Below, in pieces: positions 18,001 through 21,000 of a stretch of DNA of 54,025 nt (positions within the stretch are counted from its first letter, which is position 1; every line of letters starts with the position of its first letter). Position numbers: made by a program. Origin of the DNA: a virus (taxonomy: Duplodnaviria > Heunggongvirae > Uroviricota > Caudoviricetes); IMG/VR virus record IMGVR_UViG_2526164690_000030. One strand, 5' to 3'.

Positions 18001-21000
18001 GTATATAGGATGTCGTCCTTTGACTTTAATATAATTAAAATATCCTTCCAGTTAAAAATTAGAAAGAAATGACAACATATGCAAAAACCTTGTTAAATAT
18101 TTTATCTTTTATTATTTCAGAAAATGATTTTAGTTCTGTTTCATTTATAGACGGATTATCTTTAACTTTTTCTGACATCATAGCTTATCCTGATTACTTT
18201 TATTATGGATAGTTAAAAGATTCAACAGGTGATGGTGGCTGAATTGGGTAATGTTTCTTCTCGTACTCCTCAATGAGAAGACTCATAACCTCAAAGAAAT
18301 CACCTTCCGGAGTATTCATTTCCGGTTCGTTATCGAACATCGGTTTGACCGCACGCAGTGCGGCCTCATAATCTTGTTCTGTACGGATAGGTTTAATGTT
18401 CATTAATTACAAAGGAAAGCCCACTTGCTAAGTGGGCTTTTTGTATGTGTTTTACTATATCAGGCTGCTTTTTTATTCAGGTTCCGCTGAGAAATAAATT
18501 TTTCAGCAGTATTGATACGACTTAACTCTTCCTGAACGCGCATATCATTTTCGACTTCCCACAGATCTACTGCGGTCTGAAGATTAATCCAAAAATCTAC
18601 AGAAGTATCGAATGCTTTTGCCAGGCGATATGCCATATCCATCGTTAGCTTACGATTATTATTAACAAGAGCACTTACGGTGTTACGATGAACATGAAGT
18701 ATTTCTGCTAACTCGTTGATCTTCAGCTCTAACGGCTCCAGGTATTCGTACAGCAGGATATCACCTACGGTCGTCGGTTTTCTGGTTGCCTGTTTCATTT
18801 TTTGCCCTTACTAGCGTACGTATTAAGTGGACTCTGGTCAGAACCCGGTCCGTAACCGGGTATCTGTTTTAGTATTTGTGAGGGTCGAGATACAAGTCCT
18901 CGGCCTTTCCGTTAACCCACTTAAAAATTAACCTATATTGCTTATTCACCCTTACTGATGAATAGCCATTTAGCTTCCCTGACAGTTCCTCATACCGATT
19001 ACCTGGTGGTGATCTTAAATCCTTACAGGTAGTTGCGGCATTGATAATGTCCAACTTCCGTGACAATGTCATATGAATATCAGGAGGTATCTTTCTATGT
19101 GGTGTTGAAAATTCAAAAAAATCATCAAGCCACGCATCCCTGAAATCCTTTATGTTAATTTTTTGGTCATTAGTCATTTGATCCTCCGTGATGATTACCG
19201 AATGCCATAACTATAGCGCACTGTTGCACTGTGCGCAAGTGCATTTTATGAATTCCCCCTCCTTCATCCAAAATCACAATCTCCCGAAAATCTTCCTTTC
19301 GATACCTGACAGATCGACCTTTGAGGATGCTTATGGGCCGTTTTGACGAATGGTTTGCTGACGATGCAAACCTGGCAAGTAAGGAGTCAGAACATGACAG
19401 CACGCAGAGAGAAACGCCAGCGCCGATTGAAGCGAATGCAGGAGGCGCGCCGGAACATGGCAATACCGGTTCGGATTCATTCAGCATTCTGGAAGAGCAA
19501 CCCGCCGCCAAAGCTGATAGCCATGATAATTTTGCTGATAGCAACGGTGGCCTTACTCCGGATGCTGGCGAATCAGATATAGCCATACTTCCTCCTTCCC
19601 TGGCTGGCAGAGAACCAACTCCACAGCTAAAAGCACGCTATAACGGGCATAAAGCCTTTAACGACCAAATCCGCGCAGACTGGATGCTGATTATTGAATC
19701 CAGCCCAGACGCGTTTCAGGCTCTCTTATATCGACCAGATGTTGGCACATATGGGGTAGTCAGCGACGAAACAGGAGAAGAGTCATTCACTGAACTGGAT
19801 AACAACCAACGCGAACTGACTTACCAGGAACCTGAAATCGTTTATGTGCTGGATAACCCTGACGGGCGTGACTCTTTCCATGCGATTGACGCAGACGGTG
19901 AGCAGGATGGCTTAACCGATGATGTTCTGATTCTGCGTATTGCAGCAAATAACGTCCCCGTCGGCTCAATTCTTGAATGGAATGAAGAGATGGTAAACGG
20001 CGTAGCCCGCCGCTGGTGGTACGTGCACCGTATTTTTAGCTACGGCACACAGCATGTTGGTTCGCTTTACTACTGCATACCTGCCAGGAATTTTGATACG
20101 ACTCAAAACGGAGTGATCGAATGACTTCAAATAAAACCCTCCTGGCGCGAACCGGTGAATGGCAAACCTTACGCACAGGAAAATTCCAGACCACGGGCTT
20201 TGAAAACGTGGATAACGCGTTTGCGACGCTAATCAGCAACATTTTTTCTGATATCTTACTGGTGGCCCCCGCGCCGGAAGAAAAACGCTTTGCGTCATTC
20301 CTGAATCGTCCACCAGCAGAGCGTGTCTATATGGCCCGTTTCGACAATGCGATCGAGTTTCTTAAAGCAGTTCGTCGCGCAAATGCCGGGCAAGGGAGAA
20401 AACCTGAAAACCAGAACATTAACCGGGATGCTCTCCCCCTGGTCAATATCTCACGCACTATGGATATCAATTATATCAACGATGATCAGCAGATTGACCG
20501 CAAAAAAGTAGCCAGTTTTTGCGAACCAGATACCGGAACGCCTTTAGCAGAACTGGAATACACCCAGGCCATTCTGACGTATGACGTTACGTTAATGGCA
20601 ACTGATAAAGCGACCATGAGTCTGATGTGTAATTCGCTGGGCGCACGGCTTCGCCTGATGACAGGTACACAATTTGAAGCAACCACTCACCTTGTTCGTG
20701 TCCCGGTCCCGCTGATTTGCTCGATACAGGATGCCAAAGAAGTCGGCTTTACGGATGTTTCAGCACCAATTGGAGAAGAGCGTATTTATGCCACACAAGC
20801 GCCGATAAGTGTGATTGCAGACGTGATCACAGCATGGGAGTTGGACGCAAAACGTATTATTACCGAAACCTCGATATCTATGGGGTGATAAGTGGCCCAG
20901 GAGTTACAACAATATTTTCTACAGTCAGTGCTCATTAACGATAACAAAGTGCCACGAGACTGGATTTTTACCGCAGTATATGTAGAAAAAACCAGCCTCA

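What the first reader, a model, noticed from the sequence alone, without database searches (positions are those of the whole stretch)
18203..19177. higBA module followed by a lone antitoxin N-domain-like ORF
A HigB-like toxin and HTH HigA antitoxin are in canonical toxin-first order. Directly downstream is a 66-codon ORF that looks like only the N-terminal domain of a two-domain HigA-type antitoxin, with no HTH domain, ending exactly where the AT-rich gene begins. This suggests a second antitoxin gene was truncated when the AT-rich moron was acquired.
Basis: partly seen in the sequence, partly recalled or inferred. Interest (0 to 1): 0.4.

Follow-up and report, generated by a model that had tools for sequence, protein, structure and literature searches.

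The report
Intact higBA plus dead antitoxin stub
A phage-plasmid related to phage D6 carries one intact toxin-antitoxin pair followed by the leftover front half of a second antitoxin that lost first its toxin and then its DNA-binding half; this is ordinary gene decay that public annotation already flags.

Summary
On the minus strand lie a HigB-like toxin (18869-19177; PF05015, E=5e-35), a HigA antitoxin (18460-18798; TIGR02607, E=8e-30) and a 66-codon ORF (18203-18403). The ORF is the first 59 codons of a 119-aa two-domain antitoxin of the E. coli K-12 HigA type, plus 7 unrelated codons.

The window is a plasmid related to phage D6 (99.8% identity). Related plasmids show three states at this site:
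- A: a PF09907 HigB toxin with the full antitoxin (21 plasmids).
- B: that toxin and its promoter replaced by the present higBA cassette, leaving a full-length orphan antitoxin (18 plasmids, including D6 orf72).
- C: the orphan cut after codon 59 (about 75 plasmids, one shared junction, including this window).

The AT-rich gene did not arrive as a new gene. Its family sits next to intact antitoxins in states A and B. The cut coincides with loss or replacement of the antitoxin's 3' half, its terminator and the AT-rich gene's 5' flank.

The stub has no ribosome-binding site, follows a terminator and has no partner toxin in the window. RefSeq already annotates it as an incomplete antitoxin pseudogene. 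It is most likely a dead remnant.

In this window the AT-rich gene is itself broken by IS10 and a frameshift.

The parts
18869..19177 (-). HigB-like toxin (RelE/ParE superfamily, GraT/HigB type), 102 aa. Relatives start at the ATG at 19170. A 1-nt shorter A-run at about 19158 moves the open frame in this window to the ATG at 19177.
   Evidence: PF05015 E=4.7e-35. Closest solved structure is GraT, 6F8S_B, E=2.8e-14. Start shift.
18460..18798 (-). HigA antitoxin, single HTH domain, 112 aa. It is the partner of the toxin above and identical to WP_000806445.1 in all state B and C relatives.
   Evidence: TIGR02607 E=7.9e-30. HTH_3 E=7e-11. E=1e-53 to E. coli YbaQ, 2EBY. Annotations.
19178..19320 (.). 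Divergent promoter region of the higBA cassette, with an imperfect palindrome TGCAC-N9-GTGCA at 19225-19243 that is a candidate HigA operator. GGAGG lies 5 nt before the ATG at 19177.
   Evidence: Sequence. Hairpin listed. The region differs entirely from the state-A promoter. The operator role is inferred.
18416..18440 (.). G+C-rich hairpin between higA and the stub, scored as terminator-like on both strands. It is the right-hand end of the higBA cassette.
   Evidence: Present upstream of every orphan or truncated copy and absent from paired copies.
18227..18403 (-). Codons 1-59 of the second antitoxin (K-12 HigA type): the two-helix N-terminal domain, retained.
   Evidence: Alignments with full-length genes. 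tblastn E=3e-37. AlphaFold model has helices 9-24 and 32-51, pLDDT about 90. The top five Foldseek hits are E. coli/Shigella HigA, prob 0.84-0.92, but E is at least 0.45.
18203..18226 (-). Seven codons (VESFNYP) and a stop with no counterpart in the full-length gene: the junction sequence.
   Evidence: Homology to full-length genes ends after ...CCATCACCT. The same tail is found in L001, L002, L007, L040 and P0001.
17597..18181 (-). 5' part of the AT-rich gene 'X' (phrog_8191; 242 aa when intact; membrane helix plus one very long helix). A 1-nt deletion at about 18062 shifts the frame after codon 40.
   Evidence: Intact 242-aa gene in L001. Differences listed. phrog_8191 E=4.9e-123. Model.
16268..17596 (-). 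IS10 (1329 bp) inserted in gene X. 9-bp target duplication TGCTAACCC at 16259-16267 and 17597-17605. Transposase ORF at 16281-17489.
   Evidence: (DDE_Tnp_1 E=1.5e-24). Relatives lack the insertion. The naming as IS10, from the end sequences and length, is my own knowledge.
16116..16267 (-). 3' part of gene X (residues 193-242 and the stop).
   Evidence: tblastn, 100% identity over 50 aa.

Best explanation
The locus is an accessory-gene hotspot between the two tail-gene blocks of a D6-like phage-plasmid. It holds one working toxin-antitoxin pair and the wreck of an older one.

(1) The working pair. HigB (PF05015) and HigA (TIGR02607) form a complete toxin-first pair. It most likely acts as a plasmid-addiction module: HigA binds HigB and represses the promoter; in cells that lose the plasmid, HigA decays and HigB cleaves mRNA on the ribosome. 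This mechanism is inferred from the family.

(2) The stub. The 66-codon ORF is a pseudogene remnant made in two steps.
- The ancestral state was a PF09907 HigB toxin translationally coupled to a 119-aa two-domain antitoxin, with an N-terminal two-helix domain and a C-terminal HTH.
- Step 1: the toxin gene and its promoter, with two TCCCA-N3-TGGGA palindromes, were replaced by the higBA cassette and its terminator. This left a full-length orphan antitoxin, as in phage D6 orf72.
- Step 2: a single deletion or replacement event removed the orphan's codons 60-119, its terminator and the upstream flank of the neighbouring AT-rich gene. This gave the form seen here and in about 75 other plasmids.

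The comparative states and the junctions are shown. The order of the steps and the stub's lack of function are inferred.
For: Identity of the parts.

The window is D6-like: 99.8% identity to phage D6 over 3.9 kb.

Three states occur at one site between the same tail genes:
- State A: L004, L010, L011, L015-17.
- State B: L003, D6, L008, L009, L013, L014, L018-20.
- State C: window, L001, L002, L007, L040.
- Counts in PLSDB: A 21, B 18, C about 75.

Breakpoints:
- The left junction lies 7 nt before the antitoxin ATG.
- The right junction lies after codon 59 and is identical in every state-C copy.

Signals:
- Paired copies have GGAG 7 nt before the ATG. Orphan and truncated copies have CTTTCCTTTGTAATTA and follow a hairpin terminator.
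- No PF09907 toxin, no C-terminal half and no operator-like palindrome above chance is present in the window.

Substitutions: changes private to orphan or truncated copies are mostly non-synonymous (C41S, G34A, E55Q, Q69L, E114K, V119I, E20K). Pairwise pN/pS is 0.074 for orphans against 0.019 for paired D6-like copies.

RefSeq calls the stub an incomplete pseudogene.
Against: - State C is the commonest state (about two thirds of the plasmids carrying this antitoxin DNA). The 66-codon frame is open in all of about 70 copies. Divergence is at most one residue, so this says little either way.
- The cut falls just before the Pfam HTH_3 match (residue 63), leaving the part that in relatives carries toxin binding and dimerisation (PMC7160566). 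The model folds with confidence.
- Orphan pN/pS is still far below 1, although recombination with paired copies can explain that.
- No expression data exist.
- The direction of the steps rests on parsimony.
Confidence: 0.8

Rival explanations
1. The stub, and the full-length orphan in state B, is a working 'anti-addiction' mini-antitoxin. It would bind the PF09907 HigB toxin of competing, incompatible state-A D6-like plasmids. A state-B or state-C plasmid could then displace them without post-segregational killing of the host.
For: - State-A plasmids with the cognate toxin share the replicon type (rep_cluster_1704) and circulate in the same hosts.
- The stub is 92-98% identical over residues 1-59 to the paired antitoxins from loci of that replicon type.
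- In K-12-type HigA/SehB the toxin-interaction and dimerisation regions are N-terminal (PMC7160566).
- The stub is predicted to fold.
- State C is the most frequent state.
- The anti-addiction concept is established (PMC2701414).
Against: - There is no Shine-Dalgarno sequence, and a terminator lies directly upstream.
- Non-synonymous changes accumulate in orphan and truncated copies.
- The SehB model places toxin contacts on helices alpha3-alpha6, which may reach beyond the retained two helices.
- There is no evidence of expression.
- The frequency of state C can be clonal spread.
Confidence: 0.07
2. The stub's DNA is kept for a cis role, not for its protein. After the event removed gene X's own upstream region, X lies 21 nt behind the stub ORF. 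X would then depend on read-through transcription and possibly translational coupling from it.
For: - In states A and B a hairpin terminator and about 60 nt separate the antitoxin from X. In state C both are gone, and only 21 nt with an AGGA remain.
- No sigma-70-like site on the minus strand lies between 18181 and 18460.
- X remains an intact ORF in about 75 plasmids, with pN/pS of 0.52 between two sublineages.
Against: - The consensus scan is crude.
- X may simply be unexpressed in state C.
- X is dispensable: it is absent in several relatives and is destroyed in this very window.
Confidence: 0.08
3. The 66-aa ORF belongs to a genuine stand-alone single-domain protein family.
For: - phrog_10398 is a 66-position profile matched end to end, E=1.7e-42.
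- The protein database holds many 54-83-aa relatives.
Against: - The full-length 119-aa antitoxin matches phrog_10398 almost as well (E=4.3e-40) over its first 66 residues. The profile has exactly the length of the truncated ORF, so it was very probably built from truncated copies.
- Most of the short database proteins read have out-of-frame or unrelated tails, or stop short, at various positions. They look like frameshifts, independent truncations or partial gene calls.
- Intact relatives are 116-119 aa and carry HTH_3.
Confidence: 0.02

Closest known systems
Escherichia phage D6 orf70-orf71-orf72-orf73 (MF356679.1)
   Same: Same site between the P1 gene 7-like and gene 25-like tail genes. 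Same higBA cassette and terminator. Same second antitoxin gene and a gene of the same AT-rich family downstream.
   Different: D6 orf72 is full length (119 aa) and keeps its terminator. D6's AT-rich gene is a different allele, 57% aa identity. D6 has no IS10 at this site.
E. coli K-12 HigB-HigA (YgjN/YgjM; PDB 5IFG, 6KML), Shigella HigBA (5YCL) and Salmonella SehAB
   Same: The ancestral module here is of this type: a PF09907 toxin first, then an antitoxin with an N-terminal helical domain and a C-terminal HTH. The full-length relative matches 5IFG_B at E=1.2e-7. PF09907 E=3.3e-34. Architecture from PMC7984235 and PMC7160566.
   Different: Only about 27% identity. The antitoxin is 119 aa rather than 138 aa. 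In the window only residues 1-59 survive, with no toxin, no HTH and no operators.
Pseudomonas putida GraTA and Proteus vulgaris Rts1 HigBA (PF05015 toxin with a HigA antidote)
   Same: The intact module at 18460-19177 is of this type. It is toxin-first, with a single-domain HTH antitoxin.
   Different: It is distant in sequence from both solved toxins (E=2.8e-14 to GraT, E about 2e-3 to Rts1 HigB). Nothing has been tested for this module.
Chromosomal toxin-ybaQ module of E. coli (YbaQ, PDB 2EBY)
   Same: The plasmid HigA matches YbaQ at E=1e-53. The cassette is about 70% DNA-identical to the chromosomal toxin-ybaQ pair. Most strains, including K-12, keep only ybaQ, another orphan antitoxin.
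   Different: It is chromosomal and belongs to a different antitoxin family from the stub. The relevance, possible cross-neutralisation of the plasmid toxin, is speculation.
PD-lambda-2 anti-phage system (Vassallo et al. 2022, PMC9519451)
   Same: The state-A toxin and antitoxin hit PADLOC PD-Lambda-2_A (E=1e-41) and PD-Lambda-2_B (E=6.9e-43).
   Different: The match to B covers only profile positions 1-119 of 402. The peptidase domain and the third (P4 antitoxin-like) gene are absent. This is not a PD-lambda-2 system.

Membership tests
HigBA of the PF05015/TIGR02607 type (intact module, 18460-19177) | Toxin matches PF05015 above the gathering score | tested here: met
   120.4 bits against a cut-off of 27, E=4.7e-35, profile positions 1-91 of 91
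HigBA of the PF05015/TIGR02607 type (intact module, 18460-19177) | Antitoxin matches the HigA equivalog above the cut-off | tested here: met
   TIGR02607, 102.5 bits against a cut-off of 47.7
HigBA of the PF05015/TIGR02607 type (intact module, 18460-19177) | Toxin gene upstream of the antitoxin gene, same strand, short gap | tested here: met
   18869-19177 then 18460-18798 on the minus strand, 70-nt gap
HigBA of the PF05015/TIGR02607 type (intact module, 18460-19177) | Toxin inhibits growth and the antitoxin rescues; HigA represses its own promoter | not testable with these tools
   Only a candidate palindrome at 19225-19243 is seen
Two-domain HigA antitoxin of the K-12 type (stub, 18203-18403) | N-terminal helical domain homologous to the family | tested here: met
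   89% identity over 65 aa to the 119-aa relative, which matches 5IFG_B at E=1.2e-7. Foldseek's top five hits are HigA, but with E at least 0.45.
Two-domain HigA antitoxin of the K-12 type (stub, 18203-18403) | C-terminal HTH_3 DNA-binding domain | tested here: not met
   No Pfam hit for the stub. HTH_3 lies at residues 63-115 of the full-length relative. No C-terminal half is found anywhere in the window.
Two-domain HigA antitoxin of the K-12 type (stub, 18203-18403) | Cognate PF09907 HigB toxin directly upstream, translationally coupled | tested here: not met
   No PF09907-type toxin in the window. The upstream sequence is a terminator with no Shine-Dalgarno sequence.
Stand-alone small protein family (phrog_10398) | A family of complete proteins of this length, distinct from truncated antitoxins | tested here: not met
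   The full-length antitoxin matches the same 66-position profile at E=4.3e-40. Most of the short database relatives read have out-of-frame or unrelated tails or stop short.
PD-lambda-2 defence system | HigB-like gene, HigA-peptidase fusion and a third gene | tested here: not met
   Only positions 1-119 of 402 of component B match in the state-A relative. There is no peptidase and no component C. System description in PMC9519451.
IS10 (insertion in the neighbouring gene) | 1329-bp element with a DDE transposase, terminal repeats and a 9-bp target duplication | tested here: met
   16268-17596 is 1329 bp. DDE_Tnp_1 E=1.5e-24. Duplication TGCTAACCC. Absent from relatives. The element's name is from my own knowledge.

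The most novel reading that the evidence does not exclude
The stub and the AT-rich gene may be the decayed remains of an undescribed three-gene module: a PF09907 HigB toxin, a two-domain HigA antitoxin and a hypervariable membrane/long-helix protein 'X' (phrog_8191).

Evidence for a real association:
- X lies directly downstream of such toxin-antitoxin pairs of two deeply diverged types (26-28% aa identity) in 13 of 15 loci examined.
- These loci include D6-like plasmids of E. coli and Enterobacter, a Klebsiella IncFIB/IncHI1B plasmid, a Leclercia chromosome and other non-phage contexts.
- The toxin-antitoxin pair stays 97-100% identical across contexts while X differs by 33-66%.

This pattern would fit a toxin-antitoxin-anchored, fast-swapping defence or exclusion cassette. 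A narrower version is that the stub still neutralises the toxin of rival plasmids.
Probability: 0.25. Interest if true: 0.55.

Novelty: already known. Interest (0 to 1): 0.22.

Why it matters
As it stands, it matters little. It is a clear example of one toxin-antitoxin module displacing the toxin of another on a phage-plasmid and leaving an orphan antitoxin that then decays. Automated annotation already flags the stub as a pseudogene.

It is useful as a caution: an open 66-codon frame with its own PHROG family can still be a gene fragment.

The wider pattern at this site may be worth a dedicated look. Toxin-antitoxin cassettes swap there, and a hypervariable membrane protein habitually follows PF09907-type HigBA pairs. 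That look should ask about plasmid competition (anti-addiction) and possible phage defence.

Tried and rejected
- Pfam and NCBIfam scans of the stub gave nothing. The identification rests on relatives instead.
- The 5.8-billion-protein search with the stub returned mostly short proteins. On reading them, most have out-of-frame or unrelated tails or stop short, so they do not form a small-protein family.
- Foldseek of the stub model put HigA structures first, but with E at least 0.45. I treat this as consistent, not as proof.
- A search for state-A operator-like palindromes in the window gave one 1-mismatch hit, fewer than the 1.58 expected by chance.
- The promoter scan found no minus-strand site upstream of the stub or of gene X.
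- Gene X: Pfam and PADLOC gave only sub-threshold hits. PHROGs says 'unknown function'. The AlphaFold model (pLDDT 75) had no Foldseek match with E below 3. Two scans of GTDB species-representative genomes found no relative.
- A weak tblastn hit of the toxin at 8967-9155 was rejected as spurious: no ORF there resembles a toxin.
- The pN/pS comparison of orphan and paired antitoxins shows only a modest rise and is confounded by recombination. I do not rely on it.
- I rejected 'assembly artefact' for the truncation because the identical junction occurs in about 75 independently assembled plasmids.
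Full report
**Observation.** The three minus-strand ORFs exist as described.
- 18869-19177 (102 aa) matches PF05015 HigB-like_toxin at E=4.7e-35. Its closest solved relative is the GraT toxin, 6F8S_B, E=2.8e-14.
- 18460-18798 (112 aa) matches the HigA equivalog TIGR02607 at E=7.9e-30 and E. coli YbaQ (2EBY) at E=1e-53.
- 18203-18403 (66 aa) has no Pfam or NCBIfam hit. It is 89% identical over 65 residues to the first half of a 119-aa antitoxin in related plasmids.
- That 119-aa protein has HTH_3 at residues 63-115. Over residues 6-112 it matches E. coli K-12 HigA (5IFG_B) at E=1.2e-7.
- G+C drops from about 0.41 to about 0.30 just left of the ORF.

**What the window is.** Tail and baseplate genes to the right are 99.8% identical to Escherichia phage D6, a 91-kb plasmid prophage. 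Near-identical 90-kb E. coli plasmids cover everything in 15500-20200 except a 1329-bp insertion. In those plasmids RefSeq already annotates the 66-codon ORF as a pseudogene: 'HTH domain-containing / HigA family antitoxin, incomplete, missing C-terminus'.

**Comparative anatomy.** Between the same two tail-gene blocks, D6-like plasmids show three states.
- State A: a PF09907 HigB toxin (E=3.3e-34) ends 3 nt before the 119-aa antitoxin, with GGAG 7 nt upstream of its ATG.
- State B: the toxin gene and its promoter are replaced by the PF05015/TIGR02607 higBA cassette and a hairpin terminator. The full 119-aa antitoxin remains as an orphan. Phage D6 itself is in this state (orf70-72).
- State C: the same, but the antitoxin ends after codon 59 followed by VESFNYP-stop (window).
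- In PLSDB the counts are 21 (A), 18 (B) and about 75 (C).

**Breakpoints.**
- The left junction (A to B) lies 7 nt before the antitoxin ATG. On the other side it falls in the divergent promoter region, where state A carries two TCCCA-N3-TGGGA palindromes that state B/C lacks.
- The right junction (B to C) lies after ...CCATCACCT (codon 59). It is identical in all state-C copies, so it was a single event.
- Lost in that event are codons 60-119, the GCGGTC...GACCGC terminator and the sequence upstream of the next gene.

**The AT-rich gene is not a new arrival.** Gene X (242 aa when intact; phrog_8191, E=4.9e-123; G+C 0.29-0.33) follows intact antitoxins in states A and B as alleles only 34-63% identical to one another. 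It is absent from other state-A and state-B plasmids. The window-type allele is found only with the truncation. The event was therefore either a deletion, or an allele replacement whose left end fell inside the antitoxin gene.

**Is the stub functional?**

Against:
- There is no Shine-Dalgarno sequence (CTTTCCTTTGTAATTA before the ATG), and a terminator-like hairpin lies directly upstream.
- The window holds no PF09907 toxin, no HTH half and no operator-like palindromes above chance.
- Changes private to orphan or truncated copies are mostly non-synonymous. Pairwise pN/pS is 0.074 for orphans against 0.019 for paired D6-like copies. This is weak evidence and is confounded by recombination.

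For:
- The cut leaves exactly the two-helix N-terminal domain, which is modelled with pLDDT about 90. Its best structural matches are E. coli and Shigella HigA (prob 0.84-0.92, but E at least 0.45).
- In SehB/HigA relatives the toxin-interaction and dimerisation regions are N-terminal (PMC7160566).
- State C is the commonest state, and the frame is open in about 70 copies. Divergence is at most one residue, so there is no power to test selection.

I conclude it is a pseudogene remnant (0.8). An anti-addiction decoy (0.07) and a cis role for gene X expression (0.08) are minor rivals.

**The 'complete small family' test.** phrog_10398 is 66 positions long and matches the stub end to end. The full-length antitoxin matches it almost as well over its first 66 residues. 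Most of the short database relatives I read have out-of-frame or unrelated tails or stop short, which points to frameshifts, independent truncations or partial gene calls. The refutation condition is not met.

**Window-specific damage.**
- IS10 (16268-17596) has a 9-bp duplication TGCTAACCC and splits gene X.
- A 1-nt shorter A-run at about 18062 shifts X's frame after codon 40.
- A 1-nt shorter run at about 19158 moves the toxin's open frame from the ATG at 19170 (MTKKINIK...) to the ATG at 19177 (MTNDQKINIK...). The ATG at 19177 sits 5 nt after GGAGG.
- Both 1-nt differences are in homopolymers and could be sequencing errors.

**How it most likely works.** The intact higBA is a plasmid-addiction module. 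The mechanism is inferred from the family and not tested here. D6-like plasmids are described as carrying phd-doc and higA-higB killing systems (PMC6799933). The stub does nothing.

**Side observation.** Gene X also follows a second, deeply diverged PF09907-HigB/139-aa antitoxin pair (26-28% identity to the first pair).
- This pair with X occurs in an Enterobacter D6-like plasmid, a Klebsiella IncFIB/IncHI1B plasmid, a Leclercia chromosome and other contexts.
- Of 15 loci examined, 13 have the pair or its remnant upstream of X. The two exceptions have umuDC upstream, or X alone.
- The 103/139-aa pair is 97-100% identical across contexts, while X is only 49-67% identical.
- X has no informative fold match and no relatives in GTDB representative genomes.
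- This suggests, but does not show, a three-gene unit with a fast-changing third gene.

**Novelty and score.** The toxin-antitoxin pair consists of database proteins that are already annotated. The stub is already flagged as an incomplete gene. The truncation is ordinary decay. The stepwise reconstruction is new detail, not a new kind of thing. Interest is 0.22. The three-gene reading, at probability about 0.25, would merit about 0.55.

Noticed in passing
window 16116-18181 (minus); L021, L022, L027, L029, L032-L043: AT-rich gene X (phrog_8191; membrane helix plus a ~110-residue helix) is hypervariable: 34-63% aa identity between alleles in plasmids whose flanks are 91-99% identical. It sits directly downstream of PF09907-HigB/HigA pairs of two diverged types in 13 of 15 loci, including non-phage contexts. 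This may be a three-gene module. The function of X is unknown.
   Followed up: partly
window 16268-17596: IS10 insertion (1329 bp) with a 9-bp target duplication TGCTAACCC. It is absent from all near-identical plasmids in the E. coli collection and disrupts gene X.
   Followed up: yes
window ~18062 and ~19158: Two 1-nt deletions in homopolymer runs relative to the closest plasmid, pF8704-2_2 (L001). One shifts the frame of gene X. The other moves the HigB start from the ATG at 19170 to the ATG at 19177. They could be real or sequencing errors.
   Followed up: partly
window 18460-19290 compared with E. coli chromosomes: The plasmid higBA cassette is about 70% DNA-identical to a chromosomal toxin-ybaQ module. 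4854 of 5426 complete E. coli genomes have a match, but only 1165 cover at least 80% of the cassette. The rest, including K-12, keep ybaQ alone. The plasmid HigA matches YbaQ (PDB 2EBY) at E=1e-53, so the chromosomal orphan might cross-neutralise the plasmid toxin.
   Followed up: partly
window 18345-18372 (+) and 18414-18442 (+): The best promoter-like match in the region (TTGACC-16-CATAAT, 10 of 12) lies antisense inside the stub. It points at a strong plus-strand terminator about 45 nt away, so a very short antisense RNA is conceivable. This is a consensus match only.
   Followed up: no
window 5872-8838 (+): A 988-aa ORF that looks like a Tn3-family transposase, judged from its sequence and my own knowledge; I did not scan it. 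If so, this D6-like plasmid carries a transposon elsewhere in the window.
   Followed up: no
L003 6347-6918 (NZ_CP127300.1): Some D6-like plasmids carry a further RelE/ParE-HigA pair beyond the baseplate gene, a position that is empty in L001. This looks like a second toxin-antitoxin insertion hotspot in this phage-plasmid family.
   Followed up: no
L004 3195-3860: The state-A toxin and antitoxin hit the PADLOC models PD-Lambda-2_A (E=1e-41) and PD-Lambda-2_B (E=6.9e-43). The B match covers only profile positions 1-119 of 402, so automated defence finders may over-call this plain HigBA pair.
   Followed up: yes
L014, L020 compared with L016, L017: An orphan antitoxin behind the higBA cassette has the same protein accession (WP_021551809.1) as a paired antitoxin in other plasmids. 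At the DNA level it differs by a single synonymous site. The left cassette, the antitoxin and gene X therefore reassort by recombination among D6-like plasmids.
   Followed up: partly
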